DNA of 64,000 nt, from positions 38,609 through 102,608 of the forward strand of contig JBAMLY010000009.1 in assembly GCA_039794045.1 (NCBI GenBank), read 5' to 3'. Each line of letters starts with the position of its first letter. The first letter of the stretch is position 1. Of this stretch, positions 10,528 to 23,273 are shown piece by piece. Under the pieces are notes generated by a model that saw nothing but the letters and a program-made list of their open reading frames with translations, was not told the origin of the DNA and made no database searches. Made by a program: the position numbers and the translations under genes. Source of the DNA: Candidatus Micrarchaeia archaeon. GTDB lineage: Archaea; Micrarchaeota; Micrarchaeia; Norongarragalinales; UBA8480.

Positions 10528-10701
10528 CGCGTCCCACCCTCAAACAAGTAAAAAAATGCGGCTGCCGGGATTTTCAGACGGAAAAGCCTTTGCGGCCTTT
10601 CTTTTTCCGATGAACCCCTTCTCTTCCAGAAAAGGAGTTCTTTTGAACCCGGGTCTCCAGATTGGCAATCTGACGTCCTACCAGGCTAGACTACAACCGC
10701 T

Positions 10702-12381
10702 TCAAAAATCGGAGTAAGGACGGCTTCGCTTCAGCACTAGTATTACTGCTACCACAATTAAAAGAATTGCGACTGCCAACCCCGCCAGCATTCGAGCGTC
10801 GACGCCTGCAACCACAAGCGATTCAGTGGATGGCGTTGAAGAAGCAACTGGAGACTGCGCGGGAGGAATGCTGGCTTCCTGTCCAGAGAAAGACAAGACA
10901 AACTTTTGCGAGAAGGAACGCTTGCCGAAAACAACCCTGATTTCTCCCTCGTGGTTTCCAGGCGCGGGCAAAGGAAAAGCAAACTCGAACCTCTTCTTTT
11001 CTCCCACCTTCAAAGAAAAAGACTGCCTCTCCTCTGCTCCGTCCAGAAAAGCGTAAACGCTCGCCCCGCTTATGTCCTCGCCGCCCTTGTTACGCAACAC
11101 GCACACTAACTTAAAAGAGTCCCCAGAAGAAAGATAAGAGAGCTCGCTTACTTCCACGCCCTCGGCCAACGAAACAGCGCCGCCCTTGCGAGCCGTAATG
11201 TTGGCTTGCGCTTGCGCGCCCAAGCTCGTCACGGAAACAGGGAAAGTGTAAACATAGTTTTCAGCAAGCGAGGAAGGCACTACCACGGTCCAGTTCACTT
11301 CAGTTTCCTCCCCAGCCCGCAAGAACAAGAGCCTGTCCTTCTCGTCGACCACCTTCATTTCAACTGGTGTGGTGGGAACAGAGAGCGACAAAGGCACAGC
11401 CAAGTCTCGTGCGGCGCGCACGCGCGCGGAAACGACTGCAATCGAGCCCTCGCCAAGCGCCTGGGAAGGCACTGAAACGTTGAGGGAAACCAGGCCAGGA
11501 AAACCTTGCTTGGAAGCAAAAGAAAGCGAAGCGCCGCGCTCTATGCGGGCGAGAGACAAGTCCAAAGACCTTCCCTTGCCAGTGATTTCTTCGCGGACTC
11601 CGTCTTGGTCGACTGCCTGCGCGAACTTCAAGTGAGTAGCGTCGAGAACCACTCCCTCGCCGTAAGTCGCGTCGAATGGAACCCACTTGCCGTCTATTGC
11701 TGCCTCAACCCAAGCGTGCGGACCCCAGTCGTCGCCAGTGAAGACAAAGCCTGCCACGAAGCGCGCGGGAATCCCTTGCGAGCGAAGCATCGCAATCAGC
11801 AAGTGAGAGTATTCGCTGCACTTTCCTTTTCTCTGCTCGAAGGCCTCCTGCGACGTTAAGAGGTTGTCCCTGTAAAAACCGAGCCCCTCGTACTCTAACG
11901 CGTTGTGAACCCATTCAGTCAAGCGCGTTGCTTTCACCCAATCACTTGCGTTCCCTGCCACTTCCGCTGCCTTGGAACGAATTTCCGGGGAAATTAGTAC
12001 GTACTCGCTTTCACCCAAGTAACGCTGCGCCTCGGAAGCGCTAGCTTCTTGAAAGCCGCGCGAGTAGTCCACGGAAATGCGAGCATTCAAGTAAACCTGG
12101 CTTGGCTTCGCGCTGGAATCTAACGCGAAAACAATTACGTGGTTGCCGAAAGCGTCTTCACTCGCAGAAAAAGGAGAAAAAGCAAGAATTTCGCGGGCTT
12201 GGTGCGCGTCACTAAAAAAATCGTAGGACTTCAACTGTAAATCGCTCGCCGCCTGCCCCCCTAAGTCCACTGCCCAAGAAAGGCGGGCGTCTACTACAGC
12301 GCTGCCAATCATTTTCGGCGAGAAATCGATTGCGGCCGCCAACCCCGAAAGCAACACTAAGGCGAACACGAAGCGCTTCAT
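10702..12381 (-). CDS. Secreted transglutaminase-like (papain-fold) enzyme with C-terminal TM anchor; start moved to MKRFVF
   Basis: Signal peptide MKRFVFALVLLSGLAAA and a transglutaminase core with Cys (GKCSEYSHLL), His (GPHAWVEA) and Asp. C-terminal TM helix plus KRSRPYSDF tail. The ORF-track start at 12459 would overlap the adjacent tRNA. Confidence 0.75.
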   Translation of the reverse strand: MKRFVFALVLLSGLAAAIDFSPKMIGSAVVDARLSWAVDLGGQAASDLQLKSYDFFSDAHQAREILAFSPFSASEDAFGNHVIVFALDSSAKPSQVYLNARISVDYSRGFQEASASEAQRYLGESEYVLISPEIRSKAAEVAGNASDWVKATRLTEWVHNALEYEGLGFYRDNLLTSQEAFEQRKGKCSEYSHLLIAMLRSQGIPARFVAGFVFTGDDWGPHAWVEAAIDGKWVPFDATYGEGVVLDATHLKFAQAVDQDGVREEITGKGRSLDLSLARIERGASLSFASKQGFPGLVSLNVSVPSQALGEGSIAVVSARVRAARDLAVPLSLSVPTTPVEMKVVDEKDRLLFLRAGEETEVNWTVVVPSSLAENYVYTFPVSVTSLGAQAQANITARKGGAVSLAEGVEVSELSYLSSGDSFKLVCVLRNKGGEDISGASVYAFLDGAEERQSFSLKVGEKKRFEFAFPLPAPGNHEGEIRVVFGKRSFSQKFVLSFSGQEASIPPAQSPVASSTPSTESLVVAGVDARMLAGLAVAILLIVVAVILVLKRSRPYSDF

Positions 12382-12434
12382 GAAATTAGTTTGGCGCTCT
12401 TCAATTAAAAAGAATGCGAAAAAGAAAAAAAGAG

Positions 12435-12542
12435 TGCCGCTGGTGTGATTTGAACACACGACATACCGGTCTTCAGCTTCGTCACCCCCGGCGCTTGACG
12501 CGCCGCGGATTCGGACGCTCTCCCAGTCTGAGCTACAGCGGC
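12435..12542 (-). tRNA. Intron-containing tRNA, probably tRNA-Phe(GAA), with a ~34-nt intron at a non-canonical position
   Basis: Reverse complement: acceptor stem GCCGCTG/CAGCGGC, D-arm GCTC-AGACTGGGA-GAGC, T-arm GTGTG-TTCAAAT-CACAC, discriminator A. An anticodon-loop candidate CTGAAGA lies next to CCGGT. About 34 extra nt (containing the hairpin GGCGCGTCAAGCGCC) sit 5' of the loop, and I could not place exact exon-intron borders by eye. Confidence 0.55.
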
Positions 12543-12602
12543 ATGCAAGAAGTTATTTGGGCAGCCAACCTTTAAAACAATTCTGCGTCTTATTAATTTC
12601 AA

Positions 12603-12798
12603 GGGCCCGTAGTCGATTGGCTAAGACGCCTGTCTTACACAACCTTTTTTGCTATGCAATCACGCTTGGGCGCTCTTGCTGCGCAAAAAGCGTTGACGAA
12701 AAAGCAAGAAGGGTGTAGAAACAGGAGATGCGGAGTTCGATTCGAGCAATCAAAAGCGCGCGTCTCTTCGCTTGCTCGCGAACATCTCCGCGGGCCCA
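12603..12798 (+). tRNA. tRNA-Val(UAC) with two introns (about 80 nt at 37/38 and 43 nt in the T-loop at 58/59)
   Basis: Exon 1: GGGCCCG-TA-GTCG-ATTGGCTA-AGAC-G-CCTGT-CTTACA. Exon 2 (12720-12740): A-ACAGG-AGATG-CGGAG-TTCGA. Exon 3 (12784-12798): AT-CTCCG-CGGGCCC-A. All stems pair perfectly: 7-bp acceptor, D-stem with a G13-A22 mismatch, 5-bp anticodon stem, 5-bp T-stem. Confidence 0.7.
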
Positions 12799-12876
12799 CT
12801 CACGGCGGCGGGGAACCAAGGTTCTCCGTTAAGTCGAGTGCTCGTTTTCTTGCAAGCAGAGAAAGAGTGGTTTAAG

Positions 12877-12998
12877 CGGACCCACTGGGATTCGAACCCA
12901 GGTCAAGAGCTGTCTGCAATCAGTCTGCCGCGAGCGCGGCAGTCATGAGACCGCGATTTCCGCAAGCTCCCATTCTATCCAGGCTGAACTATGGGTCC
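12877..12998 (-). tRNA. tRNA-Arg(GCG) with a 48-nt canonical intron (37/38)
   Basis: Reverse complement: GGACCCA-TA-GTTC-AGCCTGGATA-GAAT-G-GGAGC-TTGCGG[48-nt intron]A-GCTCT-TGAC-CTGGG-TTCGAAT-CCCAG-TGGGTCC-G. Mature length is 74 nt and all stems pair. Confidence 0.8.
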
Positions 12999-13127
12999 TC
13001 GTTTGTTGCGCCGTGCTGGGGGACGGCAATAGTTTTTTGCAGGACAACCTATAAAAACAACTTGTTGCAGAATATTGTCCGCTGCTTTTCGTCGTTCGCG
13101 TTTGAAGCAGTGTTTTGGTGGTCTGCA

Positions 13128-13277
13128 ATGGCTTTTTGCTCGAGTTGTGGTAGGGAAACGAGTGACTACACTAAGTTTCCTTGCCCGAACGCGTCCTGCA
13201 ACGAGGTCGTGGTTAGGTGCAAGCCTTGCCGCGAGAACGAAGTTTCTTACGAGTGCTGCGGCTTTAAAGGTCCTTGA
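13128..13277 (+). CDS. Small Zn-ribbon protein (COG2888-like, translation-associated)
   Basis: 49 aa: MAFCSSCGRE...CPNASCNEVVVRCKPCRENEVSYECCGF with paired CxxC motifs. It is translationally coupled to the downstream gene by an ATGA-type overlap. Confidence 0.5.
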   Translation: MAFCSSCGRETSDYTKFPCPNASCNEVVVRCKPCRENEVSYECCGFKGP

Positions 13278-13705
13278 TTGCGATGACTGGGCGCGTGATG
13301 GCTTTCGGTACTTTTGACGTGCTTCACTTGGGCCACCTCAAGTTTTTTGAGGCGGCTCGGCGGCTGGGAAGCGAGCTCGTCGTCGTGGTGGCGCGCGACT
13401 GGATAGTCGAGAAAGTAAAAGGGCGAAAGCCTTTTTTTTCTGAGGGCGAGCGGCTTGAACTCGTTTCAGCGCTCAAGCCGGTAGACAAGGCCGTGCTCGG
13501 CTGCGAGGGAAACAAGTACGAAGTGATAAAACGCTTCAAGCCAGATGTAGTGGTGTTGGGCTACGACCAAAAAGATGACGCAAGGGTTTTGCGTGCGAAG
13601 CTTGACGAGATGGGCTTGAAGAAGACGAGGGTTGTTCGCTTGAAGCCTTTCGCGACGGGCAAGCACAAGAGTTCGCGAGTGAAAGAGTTTTTGAGGAAGT
13701 GTTGA
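13274..13705 (+). CDS. ribL: FAD synthase RibL (CTP-dependent archaeal FMN adenylyl/cytidylyltransferase)
   Basis: GTFDVLHLGH nucleotidyltransferase motif, and VVVARDWIVEKVKGRKPFFSEGERLELVSALKPVDKAVLG which closely matches archaeal RibL. Length 143 aa. Confidence 0.8.
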   Translation: MIAMTGRVMAFGTFDVLHLGHLKFFEAARRLGSELVVVVARDWIVEKVKGRKPFFSEGERLELVSALKPVDKAVLGCEGNKYEVIKRFKPDVVVLGYDQKDDARVLRAKLDEMGLKKTRVVRLKPFATGKHKSSRVKEFLRKC

Positions 13706-13718
13706 CGTGGTGGTTTGA

Positions 13719-13967
13719 ATGGGTAAAGTTATGACTGTAATGAAGATTTATCCTTGCGAGGGAGCTGACTTGACCAAGTTGCTTGACGCTGTTTACTCGG
13801 TCAAGGGGTGCAATTCTGCCAAGATAGAGGAATTCGTTTTCGGCGCCAAGATTTTGAAGGCTTCCTTTATTTGCGACGACAAAGAAGGAGTGGACTTCGA
13901 GGAAATAGTCAAGAAGATTGAAGGCGTCAGCGAGGTTCAAGTGGACGAAGTCGGCTTGATTAGTTGA
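13719..13967 (+). CDS. ef1b: Translation elongation factor aEF-1 beta
   Basis: 82-aa protein MGKVMTVMKIYP...GVSEVQVDEV, matching archaeal EF-1 beta in length and pattern. Confidence 0.85.
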   Translation: MGKVMTVMKIYPCEGADLTKLLDAVYSVKGCNSAKIEEFVFGAKILKASFICDDKEGVDFEEIVKKIEGVSEVQVDEVGLIS

Positions 13968-14455
13968 TGGCGTGGTTTCTTGCGCGAGACTAGCCTTTTT
14001 ATTCTAGCAGCAGTCGCTTTTATTTCGCGCCAGTGCGTTCCCTTCCAATAGATTTTGCCGCATGCGGTGCACTGCCAGAATTCGCGGTGGCGCTTGAATA
14101 CTCTTGGGAACACGTGGTTTTTCACTGTCTGCTTTGACACTCTCTTTATTTCTCCGCCGCAGGCGGGGCACAGTGAGCGCTTTGAGAGAGGCTTCAACTC
14201 GAGCGCGAATTCTGCTGCGACTTCAGCGAACTGGTTTTCAAGGTTGTTTGACTTAACTAGGAATGCCTTGCAGTAGTCTCTTGCCTTGCGCGCTAGTTCT
14301 TCGTCGCGCGTTAAAAGAATTCGGTTGCTGTTAATTGCTTTGCGTAAAACTTCCTCGTCTTCCGCGTCCTTTCCTGCGTACTCGCAGTCAAAACCGAGGA
14401 TGCGCAGCCACCTGCATAGTTTTCCAAGCATTGAGTCCGCGAAAAACTTTTTCAA
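13937..14455 (-). CDS. Mut7-C/DUF82 domain protein (predicted RNase) with Zn-ribbon
   Basis: MLGKLCRWLRILGFDCEY motif typical of Mut7-C (PF01927), plus CPACGG...CTACG. Convergent 31-nt overlap with ef1b. Confidence 0.7.
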   Translation of the reverse strand: MKKFFADSMLGKLCRWLRILGFDCEYAGKDAEDEEVLRKAINSNRILLTRDEELARKARDYCKAFLVKSNNLENQFAEVAAEFALELKPLSKRSLCPACGGEIKRVSKQTVKNHVFPRVFKRHREFWQCTACGKIYWKGTHWREIKATAARIKRLVSRKKPRHQLIKPTSST

Positions 14456-17215: not shown

Positions 17216-18658
17216 TCAGGCTGGTTGTCTGGAAAGCCACCAGTCGCGGCGGAACACGAATTTTTCGAGGAAGGGAAGCGCCTCTTCTTCGAAGGCTTTG
17301 GAGCGAGTTATCTCGTCGCCTTCAAAAATTCTTGCTTTGCTTACTGGTTTGAGGAAGTGGGAGGCAATGCCGTTCGCCTTGGGTTGCGAGACTATCTTTT
17401 TTAGTGCGTCGCGCGCGTTAGTGGTCTCGCGTTTTTTTTCGGCTGCGAGGCTTCCTCCTTCCACGTAGGGGCCGCGCGCCCACTCGCTTGGCTTGTGTGA
17501 GGCCAAGAAGTTTTCGCATGCTTTCTCGTCGGTTACGGGGGGTCCACGTACTCTCTTGAGGGGCGCGAGGCAACTCGTTTCCAGTTCGAAGAGCATGAAG
17601 CAGTTCTTACTGGAGGAAAAAGAGGTGAAGTCGTAGATGTTGAAGTCGACGCGCTCGAGTTGGCGTGCTATGGCGGCGGCGCTCTTGCGCAGTTGGGGCG
17701 TGAGCACGTCGGCTACGATGCCTGTTGGCTTGCTTGTTTGGACGAGGAAGAGCGAGTGTCCTCTTGCTGTAATGGCTTTTGCTATTCTTGTAGCGTCAGG
17801 TTTTTTTGGCTCGTGGAAAAAGAATTCGAGTGAGGGACGGCGCCAGAATGCGCGGCACAGCGTAATGAATTTGGAGAGGTTGGTTGCGTTGACGGCCGCC
17901 GCCGCGTTCCTGTTGTAGTCGATGGCGTCCACGAGAATTAACGGCGAGTCGGAAAATTTTTTGGTGAGGGCTTGCCGTCCCGCTTCTCCTTGGTATGCTC
18001 CCTCTAAGTCTATTATTACTGGGGGCTTCCAGTCTTTGGCTGCTTCAACGAGTCCAGCGAGAGAGCGGTAGTTCAAAATCATTTGCTCGCATACGAGTCC
18101 ACTGAATCCTTCTACTTCTATTTCTGCGCCGTATATTCCGTTGGCTTTCAAGAGTTTTTTTAGGACGCGCACGTCCCTCCGCTGGCGGGGGGAAAGCTTT
18201 TCCTGCAAGTACTTCATGTGGAGGGGCGAGCGGTCTACGGCGCTCTTGATTTTTTGTTGTGGTTTTATTTTAAAGCAAGGGATTACTTCTACTTCGTAGC
18301 CTGAAACGTTGGCGCGAAGGTAAGGGTGTTCAGCGTAATGCATTTCCCATTTCGCTTTCACTGCAGACTTCGTAGCGGAAATGGTTTTTCTTATTATGTA
18401 TTCGCGGTCGCGCGAGACTGGAAAGGCGACGAACAAGTCAATGTCTCTGTCTCCTGCGAGTCCAGTGTCTCTCGCTGCAGAGCCAACGAAGTTTATTTCC
18501 GCTTCTCTTCCGAGTTTTGCGGCTAGCTTTCTTGAAAGCGTTGCAGCAAACTTTTTTTCTGCAGCGGCTTCTGCCGGCGAGGGGGAAACTTTTCGTGAAA
18601 CAATTTCCGCTATTTTTTCTATTGCTTTATGAGTCTCTTCCGTGTCGCTGGATTCCAT
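17216..18658 (-). CDS. cca: CCA-adding tRNA nucleotidyltransferase (archaeal class I)
   Basis: GSAARDTGLAGDRDIDLFVAFP catalytic motif. Length 480 aa. Confidence 0.85.
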   Translation of the reverse strand: MESSDTEETHKAIEKIAEIVSRKVSPSPAEAAAEKKFAATLSRKLAAKLGREAEINFVGSAARDTGLAGDRDIDLFVAFPVSRDREYIIRKTISATKSAVKAKWEMHYAEHPYLRANVSGYEVEVIPCFKIKPQQKIKSAVDRSPLHMKYLQEKLSPRQRRDVRVLKKLLKANGIYGAEIEVEGFSGLVCEQMILNYRSLAGLVEAAKDWKPPVIIDLEGAYQGEAGRQALTKKFSDSPLILVDAIDYNRNAAAAVNATNLSKFITLCRAFWRRPSLEFFFHEPKKPDATRIAKAITARGHSLFLVQTSKPTGIVADVLTPQLRKSAAAIARQLERVDFNIYDFTSFSSSKNCFMLFELETSCLAPLKRVRGPPVTDEKACENFLASHKPSEWARGPYVEGGSLAAEKKRETTNARDALKKIVSQPKANGIASHFLKPVSKARIFEGDEITRSKAFEEEALPFLEKFVFRRDWWLSRQPA

Positions 18659-20203: not shown

Positions 20204-20782
20204 TCAACTCAACTTAAAACAAGCTATTTCTTCGTGTACTGGCCGGTTTGGCGTGAGAGTGCTTTTCTTTAAAGCTACCTTGTCTGCCGTGAACTCAGCG
20301 AGCTCTTTTTCCGCGTATTCTTTTTGGAGGGCGCGCAGTAGCGCAAGGTTTTCTCTTCCCTTCACCCGGCATATTGTGACGTGCGCCGTGAAGTTTTTTT
20401 CTTTGCCTTGCACGCCCACGGCTTTGGCTATGGCTTGCCTTAACTCGTTCAAGCCACTTCCTTGCACGCCAGTCCAGAAGACGTTGATGCGTTGCTCGCT
20501 CGGAAAAAAGCCGGCGCCCTTTAGCTTTAGCGCGAGTGGTTTCATTCCCTGTAGTGCCCCCCTTAGTTTGGCTGCCGTCTCTGCTGCCTTGCTTTCAGTG
20601 ATTTCGCCGAGGAAGGCGAGCGTGACGTGCCATTCTTCCGGTGAAGTGAAGGTAGCGTGCAAGCCTAGTGCCTTCGCCTTGGCGGAAAGCTCGCCGATTT
20701 TTTGTTTTGCCTCGGCTGGAATTTCAAGTGAAACAAAGCAACGCAAGCCAATCACAAGTTTTTTTAATTTCGTTTCATTCAT
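20204..20782 (-). CDS. thpR: RNA 2',3'-cyclic phosphodiesterase / 2'-5' RNA ligase (LigT/ThpR, 2H family)
   Basis: Two HxT/S motifs (HVTLAFLG and HVTICRV). Length 192 aa. Confidence 0.8.
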   Translation of the reverse strand: MNETKLKKLVIGLRCFVSLEIPAEAKQKIGELSAKAKALGLHATFTSPEEWHVTLAFLGEITESKAAETAAKLRGALQGMKPLALKLKGAGFFPSEQRINVFWTGVQGSGLNELRQAIAKAVGVQGKEKNFTAHVTICRVKGRENLALLRALQKEYAEKELAEFTADKVALKKSTLTPNRPVHEEIACFKLS

Positions 20783-21677: not shown

Positions 21678-23273
21678 GTGGCTTCCAGTGCAGCGCAGGC
21701 GAGAATTAATGCAGCGAGAGAAGTAGCGCGAGCCATTGCGGGAATGCGTTCAAAGCCTAGTCCACGCAAGCTGATGGCTTTAAAGCGCGCGGCGTGCAAG
21801 AGACACGGCTTGAGCGAAATGCTTTCAAACGCGGAATTGCTTGAAGCCCTCCCGTCAGCGGTATTGCGAGAAAAAAAACAGTTTTTCAGGACGAGGCAAG
21901 TGCGCTCGCTTTCAGGCGTTTGCGTTGTCGCGATAATGGCGAGGCCTGCTGAGTGCCCGCACGGCAGGTGCGCTTACTGTCCTGGAGGCCCGCAAAACAA
22001 TTCGCCTCAAAGCTATACGGGGCGCGAGCCAGCGGCAATGCGTGCTTCTCAGAACGGCTTCGATTCCTTTGCGCAAGTTAGGGCGAGGCTCGACCAACTG
22101 CGCGCCATTGGCCACGAGCCACAGAAATGCGAGTTGATAGTAATGGGCGGCACTTTCAACGCCCAGCCTCTTGAATACCAACGCGTTTTCTTGAAGCGCG
22201 CCTTTGAAGCATTCAATGAAGGCACGTCGCGTTCTCTTGAAGCCGCGATAAAAGCTAACGAGGGCGCGCGGCACAGGGTGGTGGGACTGACTTTCGAGAC
22301 GCGTCCTGACTGGGCGACTCGCGAGAGGATTTCCAGGCTCGTGGACTGGGGGGCGACGAGGATAGAGTTGGGAGTTCAGACTTTAAGCGACGAGGTTTAC
22401 AAGAAAGTGGAGAGGGGGCACTCGGTTGCCGACGTAGTGGAAGCCACGCAGACTTGCAAGGATGCGCTCCTCAAGGTAGGCTATCACTGGATGCCTGGGC
22501 TTCTCTGCGGCCCTCGCGACGACGAGAGGATGTTCAAGCGCTTGTTTTCTGACTCGCGTTTCAGGCCCGACATGCTGAAAATTTATCCTTGCCTGGTAAT
22601 GCCTGGCACGAAAATGTTTGAGTGGTGGGAGAAAGGAGAATTCGTTCCCTACGACGCTGAAACCGCGGCGAGAGTGGTGGCACGCTTGAAGCGTTTAGTT
22701 CCGCCTTACTGTAGGGTGATGCGCGTAGAGCGAGACATTCCAGTGCAGTTGATTGCTGCGGGCGTCAAGAAAAGCAACTTGCGGCAGCTCGTGCGCAAGG
22801 AAATGCTTGAGCGCGGGTGGGAGTGCAAGTGCATTCGGTGCAGGGAAGTTGGCTTCAAGCAAGCGGCTGGCGCGAAAATTGATTGGAGCGCCGTTGAGTT
22901 GAAGCGCTTTGACTACGAGGCGAGCGGCGGCAAAGAAGTTTTTCTTTCTTTCGAAGAGCCGGGAGCGGATGCGCTGGTTGCCTTCCTGCGCCTGCGATTA
23001 CCTGGCAGGCCTTGGCGCAAAGAATTCCGTGAAGGAGACGCTGGCGTGCGCGAGTTGCACGTCTACGGCGAGCAGTTGCTCGTGGGCGAGAGAAAGGAAG
23101 TGGCAGCGCAGCACAAGCGCTTTGGGCGCCTGCTGTTAGGGGAAGCCGAGCGCATAGCTGGCGAGGAGTGGGGTTCGCGGAAGCTCTTCGTTATAAGCGG
23201 CGTTGGAGTGCGTCCTTACTACAAGCGGTTGGGCTACGCTCAAGACGGTGCTTTCGTCTCCAAAAAACTATAA
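21678..23273 (+). CDS. elp3: Elp3-like radical SAM/GNAT tRNA modification enzyme
   Basis: Radical SAM Cys triad (AECPHGRCAYCPGG) and a C-terminal acetyltransferase region. GTG start. Length 531 aa. Confidence 0.9.
   Translation: MASSAAQARINAAREVARAIAGMRSKPSPRKLMALKRAACKRHGLSEMLSNAELLEALPSAVLREKKQFFRTRQVRSLSGVCVVAIMARPAECPHGRCAYCPGGPQNNSPQSYTGREPAAMRASQNGFDSFAQVRARLDQLRAIGHEPQKCELIVMGGTFNAQPLEYQRVFLKRAFEAFNEGTSRSLEAAIKANEGARHRVVGLTFETRPDWATRERISRLVDWGATRIELGVQTLSDEVYKKVERGHSVADVVEATQTCKDALLKVGYHWMPGLLCGPRDDERMFKRLFSDSRFRPDMLKIYPCLVMPGTKMFEWWEKGEFVPYDAETAARVVARLKRLVPPYCRVMRVERDIPVQLIAAGVKKSNLRQLVRKEMLERGWECKCIRCREVGFKQAAGAKIDWSAVELKRFDYEASGGKEVFLSFEEPGADALVAFLRLRLPGRPWRKEFREGDAGVRELHVYGEQLLVGERKEVAAQHKRFGRLLLGEAERIAGEEWGSRKLFVISGVGVRPYYKRLGYAQDGAFVSKKL

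What the first reader, a model, noticed from the sequence alone, without database searches (positions are those of the whole stretch)
12603..12798. tRNA-Val with two introns, including a 43-nt intron inside the T-loop (58/59)
Exon 1 ends at anticodon-loop position 37 (CCTGT-CTTACA), and exon 2 resumes 80 nt later (A-ACAGG-AGATG-CGGAG-TTCGA). The T-stem 3' strand CTCCG and acceptor 3' strand CGGGCCC-A appear only after a further 43 nt. A T-loop intron is rare and restricted to a few archaeal clades. It requires a splicing endonuclease with relaxed bulge-helix-bulge specificity, such as the heterotetrameric or epsilon2 type.
Basis: seen in the sequence. Interest (0 to 1): 0.55.

Follow-up and report, generated by a model that had tools for sequence, protein, structure and literature searches.

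The report
tRNA-Val gene with two introns
This is a real valine tRNA gene from an uncultured Micrarchaeia (DPANN) archaeon, split into three pieces by two protein-spliced introns, one of them in the T-loop; this gene layout is already known from the related organism ARMAN-2, so it is a new example of a known kind, and standard tRNA finders miss it.

Summary
Window 12603-12798 (+) encodes tRNA-Val(UAC) in three exons separated by introns of 80 and 43 nt. ARAGORN and Rfam find nothing on the unspliced locus. The joined exons give a perfect 73-nt cloverleaf.

I calibrated the bulge-helix-bulge (BHB) cleavage rule on the neighbouring tRNA-Phe, and it predicts these sites.

The T-loop intron sits in a strict 3-4-3 hBHBh' motif. 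The anticodon-loop intron has the relaxed motif.

The host belongs to Candidatus Micrarchaeia, probably Norongarragalinales. In this class 59/60 introns and the broad-specificity epsilon2 splicing endonuclease are already described for ARMAN-2. Relatives carry the Val 59/60 intron with unrelated sequence (two lineages) or no intron (two lineages).

All four tRNA genes in the window are interrupted. One is a hidden tRNA-Gly(GCC) with another 59/60 intron. No endonuclease gene is in the window.

Verdict: new member of a known kind.

The parts
12603..12640 (+). Exon 1 of tRNA-Val(UAC), tRNA positions 1-38: acceptor 5' strand, D-arm, anticodon stem 5' strand, loop CUUACAC
   Evidence: C38 is invariant in all four orthologues.
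12641..12720 (+). Intron 1, 80 nt, between positions 38 and 39. Relaxed BHB: central helix U33-C36 (12635-12638) with GUAG (12715-12718); 5' bulge A37 C38|A; 3' bulge A A|A39, with C32 (and U31 if the U31-A39 pair opens) unpaired opposite; 12-bp inner helix
   Evidence: The constrained fold has the same energy as the MFE, -37.1 kcal/mol. The cut rule was calibrated on tRNA-Phe.
12721..12741 (+). Exon 2, positions 39-59: anticodon stem 3' strand, variable loop AGAUG, T-stem 5' strand CGGAG, T-loop UUCGAU
12742..12784 (+). Intron 2, 43 nt, between positions 59 and 60 in the T-loop. Strict hBHBh': central helix U54-G57 (12736-12739) with CGAA (12779-12782); bulges A58 U59|U and C A|U60; outer helix is the T-stem; inner helix CGAGCAA/UUGCUCG (12743-12749 with 12772-12778)
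   Evidence: MFE fold. It is the only BHB in the window with both flanking helices >=7 bp. The predicted T-loop UUCGAUU equals that of intronless L012.
12785..12798 (+). Exon 3, positions 60-73: U60, T-stem 3' strand CUCCG, acceptor 3' strand CGGGCCC, discriminator A. CCA is not encoded.
12568..12574 (.). Palindromic TTTAAAA/TTTTAAA TATA-like box in the 60-nt divergent spacer between tRNA-Phe (-) and tRNA-Val (+), about 29-32 nt from each gene start. It may serve as a shared promoter element.
   Evidence: Sequence. The 17-mer AATTGTTTTAAAGGTTG is conserved in the Val-Phe spacer of L012. The promoter role is an inference.

Best explanation
A functional tRNA-Val(UAC) gene of a Micrarchaeia (DPANN) archaeon, interrupted by two archaeal protein-spliced (BHB) introns. 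It would be transcribed as a precursor of about 196 nt from a TATA-like box in the spacer it shares with the divergent tRNA-Phe. In the precursor, T-loop bases U54-G57 pair with CGAA at the 3' end of the 43-nt intron. This 4-bp helix is flanked by two 3-nt bulges, with the T-stem on one side and a 7-bp intron helix on the other. Anticodon-loop bases U33-C36 pair with GUAG near the 3' end of the 80-nt intron in a looser version of the same motif. The splicing endonuclease is inferred to be the three-unit epsilon2 type that is widespread in this class. It would cut between the second and third base of each bulge, after C38, before A39, after U59 and before U60. An RNA ligase would join the three exons, and the CCA-adding enzyme encoded at 17216-18658 would add CCA, giving a 73+3-nt tRNA with anticodon loop CUUACAC and T-loop UUCGAUU. 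Shown here: gene structure, BHB motifs, orthologue support and host lineage. Inferred: transcription, the enzyme that does the cutting, and the order of splicing.
For: The spliced product is a perfect tRNA-Val(tac). It is 71/73 identical to intronless L012 and 69/73 to intronless L006, which score 64 and 70 bits against Rfam tRNA. Five orthologues keep 100% of stem pairs, with compensatory changes at 12-23 and 31-39. The T-loop intron has a strict BHB. The BHB-like fold of intron 1 is co-optimal with the MFE. The cut rule is validated on the neighbour: tRNA-Phe spliced by the rule at 30/31 is 74/74 identical to the intronless tRNA-Phe of L012, whereas a one-base shift would not be. C38 and U59 are invariant in all four orthologues. 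The same 59/60 position is occupied by an intron in tRNA-Val of L013 and L017. The host's relatives are Micrarchaeota/Micrarchaeia. ARMAN-2 has 59/60 introns, and its epsilon2 EndA cleaved a pre-tRNA-Cys carrying a 59/60 intron in vitro (PMC3239211). There are 1415 homologues of the ARMAN-2 enzyme; the best 120 are 368-406 aa and cover 97-100% of a query joined from its three units.
Against: There is no RNA evidence of expression or splicing. The endonuclease and ligase genes of this genome were not found; they are absent from the window, and the four Micrarchaeia EndA hits I checked come from other MAGs. The BHB of intron 1 is imperfect: its 3' bulge faces one or two unpaired bases. The intron sequences are known only from near-identical population copies, so covariation within the introns cannot be tested. 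Whether another tRNA-Val(UAC) copy exists elsewhere in the genome is unknown.
Confidence: 0.88

Rival explanations
1. One reading: a canonical 37/38 intron plus a 58/59 T-loop intron, giving anticodon loop CUUACAA and T-loop UUCGAAU.
For: This product also folds as tRNA-Val(tac) in ARAGORN. The one-base repeats at both boundaries make the two versions indistinguishable from the DNA alone.
Against: It would require cuts between bulge bases 1 and 2. That rule gives a wrong product for the neighbouring tRNA-Phe. All four orthologues have C38 and U59. Identity to L012 falls to 69/73.
Confidence: 0.08
2. A decaying or non-functional tRNA gene whose interruptions are not spliced, with valine GUA/GUG decoding supplied from another locus.
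For: No expression data exist, and the BHB of intron 1 is relaxed.
Against: All 73 exon positions retain a perfect cloverleaf and are 94-97% identical to intronless orthologues. Both interruptions sit in BHB motifs at positions that restore the orthologous sequence exactly. All four tRNA genes of the window are interrupted in the same way. The locus is identical in three population copies.
Confidence: 0.03
3. The interruptions are self-splicing (group I or II) introns or mobile-element insertions rather than BHB introns.
For: None specific.
Against: They are only 80 and 43 nt long. Rfam finds no intron family there even at E<=10. No repeats of either intron occur elsewhere in the window or loci. 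Both fit the BHB model.
Confidence: 0.01

Closest known systems
Pre-tRNA-Cys(GCA) (59/60 intron) and pre-tRNA-Pro(GGG) (53/54 + 59/60 introns) of Candidatus Micrarchaeum acidiphilum ARMAN-2 (Fujishima et al. 2011, PMC3239211)
   Same: Same archaeal class. Same T-loop insertion site, 59/60. More than one intron per gene. BHB-type junctions. tRNA-Pro also has a strict hBHBh' motif in the T-loop. A high fraction of that genome's tRNA genes are disrupted (56%; here 4 of 4 in the window).
   Different: Different tRNA (Val). Different order (Norongarragalinales-like rather than Micrarchaeales). Here the 59/60 intron is combined with a 38/39 intron of 80 nt. The 59/60 intron is longer (43 nt against 13 nt in tRNA-Cys). 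There is no biochemical evidence here.
Multiple-intron tRNA genes of Thermoproteales (Sugahara et al. 2007, 2008; Fujishima et al. 2010, as cited in PMC4033280)
   Same: Up to three BHB introns per tRNA at non-canonical positions. Strict and relaxed motifs occur together. Presence or absence changes quickly between relatives. There is evidence of intron movement between sites.
   Different: A different superphylum (TACK) and a different enzyme, (alpha-beta)2 with the Crenarchaea-specific loop. Those hosts are hyperthermophiles, not small-genome DPANN archaea.
Canonical archaeal 37/38 tRNA intron, for example tRNA-Arg(GCG) in this window at 12877-12998 (-)
   Same: Same BHB geometry and cut rule. 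The anticodon-loop bases form the central helix with the 3' end of the intron.
   Different: Intron 1 of tRNA-Val is shifted one base, to 38/39. Its 3' bulge is not a clean 3-nt bulge.

Membership tests
Archaeal BHB (protein-spliced) tRNA intron | Removing the intron restores a canonical cloverleaf tRNA | tested here: met
   ARAGORN calls tRNA-Val(tac), 73 nt. The product is 71/73 identical to an intronless orthologue that scores 64 bits against Rfam tRNA. All 20 stem pairs are standard pairs in each of five orthologues.
Archaeal BHB (protein-spliced) tRNA intron | The exon-intron boundaries lie in two 3-nt bulges separated by a 4-bp helix (hBHBh') or in a relaxed derivative | tested here: met
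   Intron 2 is strict 3-4-3, with flanking helices of 7 and 7 bp as scored by my scan (the outer one is the 5-bp T-stem plus two further precursor pairs). Intron 1 has a 4-bp helix and a clean 5' bulge, but its 3' bulge faces 1-2 unpaired bases, so it is relaxed; the fold is isoenergetic with the MFE.
Archaeal BHB (protein-spliced) tRNA intron | Cuts between bulge bases 2 and 3 give the correct mature sequence | tested here: met
   The rule reproduces the intronless tRNA-Phe of L012 exactly, 74/74. For tRNA-Val it yields C38 and U59-U60, as in the orthologues.
Archaeal BHB (protein-spliced) tRNA intron | The host genome encodes a splicing endonuclease (EndA) and an RNA ligase | tested here: inconclusive
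   No EndA domain is on record among the called genes over window positions ~7-66 kb, nor in a Pfam scan of ten further ORFs of the window, nine of them in 1-7 kb and 29-31 kb. tblastn with M. jannaschii EndA found nothing. Class-wide, epsilon2-like EndA homologues are abundant.
Archaeal BHB (protein-spliced) tRNA intron | Spliced RNA and excised (often circular) intron are observed | not testable with these tools
   No RNA data are available.
Micrarchaeota-type disrupted tRNA gene with a 59/60 intron (ARMAN-2 type) | Intron inserted between T-loop positions 59 and 60 | tested here: met
   BHB cut sites at 12741|12742 and 12784|12785. The same site is occupied in tRNA-Val of L013 and L017, tRNA-Phe of L013 and tRNA-Gly of the window. 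An ARMAN-2 precedent is in PMC3239211.
Micrarchaeota-type disrupted tRNA gene with a 59/60 intron (ARMAN-2 type) | Host belongs to Micrarchaeota/Micrarchaeia | tested here: met
   The window's CCA-adding enzyme has its best GTDB matches in Micrarchaeota MAGs, at 60% identity. The adjacent transglutaminase is named Candidatus Micrarchaeia archaeon, and one cluster member is named Candidatus Norongarragalinales.
Split or permuted tRNA gene | tRNA pieces encoded at separate loci or in permuted order | tested here: not met
   The three exons are colinear, on one strand, within 196 nt.
Group I / group II intron in a tRNA gene | A conserved ribozyme core detectable by covariance models; length above about 200 nt | tested here: not met
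   The introns are 80 and 43 nt. Rfam reports no intron family at E<=10 over 11500-14000.

The most novel reading that the evidence does not exclude
The tRNA-Val introns may belong to an active, ongoing turnover of tRNA introns in Micrarchaeia, with T-loop position 59/60 as a hot spot for insertion. There, any intron ending in YGAA can build the central BHB helix with the conserved UUCR of the T-loop. The evidence has three parts. First, tRNA-Val carries unrelated intron sequences at 59/60 in three lineages and none in two. Second, the 59/60 introns of the adjacent tRNA-Val and tRNA-Phe of L013 resemble each other. Third, the window's hidden tRNA-Gly(GCC) has, at 59/60, an intron homologous over nearly its whole length to the canonical 37/38 intron of the orthologous tRNA-Gly in another Micrarchaeota MAG. 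If this is real, it would be intron relocation or transposition of the kind described only for Thermoproteales, now in a DPANN lineage with a different endonuclease. That would point to a general mechanism, such as reverse splicing by EndA and ligase, or recombination.
Probability: 0.35. Interest if true: 0.55.

Novelty: new member of a known kind. Interest (0 to 1): 0.3.

Why it matters
On its own this is another example of a gene structure documented since 2011 for ARMAN-2 and earlier for Thermoproteales. It matters in two practical ways.

First, ARAGORN and the Rfam tRNA model miss it. They also miss the neighbouring tRNA-Gly, and Rfam at its default gathering threshold misses tRNA-Arg. tRNA complements of Micrarchaeia and other DPANN MAGs will therefore be under-counted unless BHB-aware tools are used. 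A 2018 survey (PMC5829648) already noted that complete tRNA sets could not be predicted for some DPANN genomes.

Second, the small comparative set gathered here shows introns appearing, disappearing and apparently changing position within one syntenic tRNA cluster. This set is a convenient one for studying how archaeal tRNA introns spread in a lineage that uses the epsilon2 endonuclease.

Tried and rejected
1. ARAGORN with and without intron search, and Rfam at gathering and permissive thresholds, on the unspliced locus. No tRNA-Val was called. This confirms there is no contiguous alternative.

2. Central-helix register 34-37/UGUA for intron 1. The helix is perfect, but the cut rule would leave a 9-nt anticodon loop, so I rejected it.

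3. A canonical 37/38 BHB for intron 1. Only 2 of 4 central pairs form, and it implies A38 where all four orthologues have C38. Rejected.

4. A C/D-box sRNA or other known RNA hosted in the introns. Rfam reports no family there, and by eye the 80-nt intron contains no CUGA D box.

5. Similarity of the Val introns to each other, to other introns, or to anything else in the window. Nothing was significant: z<=3.8 over 55 pairs and no extra BLAST hits.

6. EndA in the window. Precomputed Pfam hits on called genes, a Pfam scan of the remaining small ORFs and tblastn with M. jannaschii EndA were all negative.

7. EndA of the same MAG through NCBI accession proximity. The four 'Micrarchaeia' EndA hits have accessions far from this MAG's MGC8850773 and MGC9113844, so the gene was not identified.

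8. Synteny through the CCA-adding enzyme in GTDB genomes. Only three loci came back and none covered the tRNA cluster.

9. A metagenome pattern scan for the Val 5' half. It returned only two loci, one useful (L006) and one unrelated tRNA array (L007).

10. Statistical rarity of the BHB motif alone. It is not significant in 64 kb, so I did not use it as evidence by itself.

Full report
**Observation**

Window 12603-12798 (+) reads GGGCCCGTAGTCGATTGGCTAAGACGCCTGTCTTACA, then 80 nt, then AACAGGAGATGCGGAGTTCGA, then 43 nt, then ATCTCCGCGGGCCCA. ARAGORN finds no tRNA anywhere in the window without intron search. Rfam finds nothing at this locus at gathering or permissive thresholds.

**Calibrating the splice rule**

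The window holds two more intron-bearing tRNAs next door on the minus strand: tRNA-Phe(GAA) at 12435-12542 and tRNA-Arg(GCG) at 12877-12998.

- In tRNA-Phe, a 4-bp helix CGUC/GACG is followed on each strand by a 3-nt bulge (CG|A and AA|G). Cutting between bulge bases 2 and 3 removes 34 nt (12478-12511) at position 30/31.
- The spliced sequence is 74/74 identical to an intronless tRNA-Phe in relative L012. A one-base shift would not reproduce it.
- tRNA-Arg has a canonical 37/38 intron of 48 nt (12912-12959) in a strict BHB with helix UUGC/GCAG.
- I therefore used this geometry: outer helix, 4-bp helix, 3-nt bulge, with the cut after the second bulge base.

**T-loop intron**

In the MFE fold of the precursor (-80 kcal/mol, z = -4.35), U54-G57 (12736-12739) pair with CGAA (12779-12782).

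- The 5' bulge is A58 U59 U and the 3' bulge is C A U.
- The T-stem forms the outer helix. CGAGCAA/UUGCUCG forms a 7-bp inner helix.
- My BHB scan returns intron 12742-12784 as the only motif in the window with both flanking helices >=7 bp.
- Shuffled windows give 0-2 such motifs, so the motif alone is not statistically remarkable. Its coincidence with the exon boundaries is what counts.
- The rule places the intron at 59/60 and gives T-loop UUCGAUU, not 58/59 with UUCGAAU.

**Anticodon-loop intron**

A canonical 37/38 BHB would need bases 32-35 (CUUA) to pair with UGUA, and only two of the four pairs form. Instead, U33-C36 (12635-12638) pair with GUAG (12715-12718).

- The 5' bulge is A37 C38|A, followed directly by a 12-bp inner helix.
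- The 3' bulge is A A|A39. C32, and U31 if the U31-A39 pair opens, lie unpaired opposite it.
- A fold constrained to this structure has the same energy as the unconstrained MFE, -37.1 kcal/mol.
- This is a relaxed BHB. It places the 80-nt intron (12641-12720) at 38/39 and gives loop CUUACAC.
- The alternative register 34-37/UGUA would leave a 9-nt loop, so I rejected it.

**Relatives**

The window matches contigs of MAGs GCA_049969435.1 and GCA_049972335.1 and JGI metagenome 3300041911. Two of these copies (GCA_049969435.1 and the JGI contig) were aligned over 12400-13010; their tRNA cluster is identical to the window's apart from one base outside the genes.

- The CCA-adding enzyme has its nearest GTDB matches in Candidatus Micrarchaeota MAGs, at 60% identity.
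- The adjacent transglutaminase-like protein is named 'Candidatus Micrarchaeia archaeon'. One cluster member is named 'Candidatus Norongarragalinales'.
- Loci around homologues of that protein, plus one metagenome pattern hit, gave orthologous tRNA-Val(UAC) genes.
  - L012 (53% protein identity) and L006 are intronless.
  - L013 (48%) and L017 (40%) have a single intron at 59/60, of 54 and 41 nt.
- All four orthologues have C38 and U59.
- The window's product spliced at 38/39 and 59/60 is 71/73 identical to L012.
- The intronless orthologues score 64 and 70 bits against Rfam tRNA.
- Over the five sequences, all 20 stem pairs are standard in every sequence. There are compensatory changes at 12-23 (C-G to U-A) and 31-39 (U-A to C-G).
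- The three 59/60 introns of tRNA-Val are not alignable with one another (z <= 1.9). The L013 and L017 motifs are relaxed.

**Mechanism**

Shown: the gene structure, the two BHB motifs and the orthologue-consistent junctions.

Inferred:
- transcription from the TATA-like TTTAAA in the 60-nt spacer shared with the divergent tRNA-Phe;
- cleavage by a splicing endonuclease at the four bulge sites;
- ligation of the three exons;
- CCA addition by the enzyme encoded at 17216-18658, since the gene does not encode CCA.

No EndA gene is in the window. The ARMAN-2 paper reports 59/60 introns in tRNA-Cys and tRNA-Pro, 56% disrupted tRNA genes, and an epsilon2 enzyme that cleaves both strict and relaxed motifs in vitro (PMC3239211). 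I joined the three ARMAN-2 EndA units recovered from PDB 4FZ2 alignments into one query. It finds 1415 homologues. The best 120 are 368-406 aa and cover 97-100% of the query, and many are named Micrarchaeota or Micrarchaeia. None could be tied to this MAG.

The same paper states that alpha4 and alpha2 enzymes need only a strict 3-4-3 motif. The strict T-loop intron therefore does not by itself demand a relaxed-specificity enzyme. The relaxed motifs do: Val 38/39, Phe 30/31 (outer helix of 2 bp) and Gly 59/60 (inner helix of 2 bp).

**Comparison and novelty**

Multiple BHB introns, non-canonical positions and specifically the 59/60 site are all documented for ARMAN-2 and for Thermoproteales (PMC3239211, PMC4033280, PMC5829648). 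Papers on Norongarragalinales and Micrarchaeota genomics in the searchable library do not mention tRNA introns. This is a new member of a known kind, in a less-studied order.

**Other things seen**

- A fourth tRNA, tRNA-Gly(GCC) at 10557-10700 (-), has a 71-nt 59/60 intron. Both ARAGORN and Rfam miss it.
- That intron aligns over nearly its whole length with the canonical 37/38 intron of the orthologous gene in L015. The local score is 52, against 16.3 +/- 3.2 for shuffles, with 0 of 500 shuffles as high. This suggests the intron has changed position.
- In L013, the 59/60 introns of the adjacent tRNA-Val and tRNA-Phe resemble each other (z 5-6).

These points are leads and are not established.

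Noticed in passing
window 10557-10700 (-); intron 10571-10641: A hidden tRNA-Gly(GCC) with a 71-nt intron at 59/60 (central helix UUCA/UGAA, bulges AA|A and AA|U, inner helix only 2 bp). ARAGORN and Rfam miss it. The spliced product is called tRNA-Gly(gcc). I found it by synteny with L012, L013 and L015 and with my own structural scan.
   Followed up: yes
window 10571-10641 (-) versus L015 7673-7820 (GCA_026396285.1, JAPLXB010000021.1): The window's tRNA-Gly 59/60 intron is homologous over nearly its full length to the canonical 37/38 intron (77 nt) of the orthologous tRNA-Gly(GCC) in L015. Local score 52 against shuffles 16.3 +/- 3.2, z about 11, 0 of 500 shuffles as high. The same intron appears to sit at different positions in two lineages. 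The corresponding tRNA-Gly genes have an intron just 5' of the T-loop (about 53/54) in L013 and a T-loop intron in L014.
   Followed up: partly
window 12435-12542 (-); intron 12478-12511: tRNA-Phe(GAA) with a 34-nt intron at non-canonical 30/31 (central helix CGUC/GACG, both 3-nt bulges clean, outer helix only 2 bp). The spliced product is 74/74 identical to the intronless tRNA-Phe of L012. The 30/31 intron is also present in L013 and L014, where the inner-helix sequences differ but still pair. L013's tRNA-Phe has a 59/60 intron as well, and L015 has a D-loop intron instead.
   Followed up: partly
window 12877-12998 (-); intron 12912-12959: tRNA-Arg(GCG) with a canonical 37/38 intron of 48 nt in a strict BHB (helix UUGC/GCAG). 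With this gene, all four tRNA genes found in the window are interrupted.
   Followed up: yes
L013 5679-5732 and 5889-5947 (JGI 3300005839, Ga0068707_1001655): The 59/60 introns of the adjacent tRNA-Val and tRNA-Phe genes in this relative resemble each other along their length (z 5.1-5.9 against shuffles). This suggests an intron was copied between neighbouring tRNA genes at the same position.
   Followed up: partly
L012 2004-2018 and 2129-2143; 1605-1640 and 1747-1780 (Logan ERR7015355): In the relative whose Val and Phe genes are intronless, the last 15 nt of tRNA-Phe plus trailer are repeated exactly 125 nt downstream. A degenerate copy of the tRNA-Val 3' end plus trailer lies about 140 nt downstream of that gene. 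Both copies begin near tRNA position 60. They could be att-like scars of an integrated element or relic 3' exons. Unexplained.
   Followed up: no
window 12543-12602: The 60-nt divergent spacer between tRNA-Phe and tRNA-Val contains one palindromic TTTAAA box about 30 nt from both gene starts. The 17-mer AATTGTTTTAAAGGTTG around it is conserved in L012. It may be a bidirectional promoter element.
   Followed up: partly
window 17216-18658 (-), 20204-20782 (-), 21678-23273 (+): Genes related to tRNA and RNA processing lie close to the tRNA cluster: an archaeal CCA-adding enzyme, a LigT/2',5'-RNA-ligase-family protein, and a radical-SAM protein carrying the Radical_SAM_C domain. No EndA domain and no RNA-ligase family other than LigT appeared in the Pfam hits seen for the window's genes.
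   Followed up: partly
protein database: Three-unit epsilon2-type EndA homologues are far more widespread than the 2011-2018 literature states, which reported only ARMAN-1/2 and Mancarchaeum. There are 1415 hits at E<=1e-10. The best 120 are 368-406 aa and cover 97-100% of the query. A few are labelled Marsarchaeota or Nitrososphaerota by their source; these labels may be binning or annotation errors and are worth checking.
   Followed up: no
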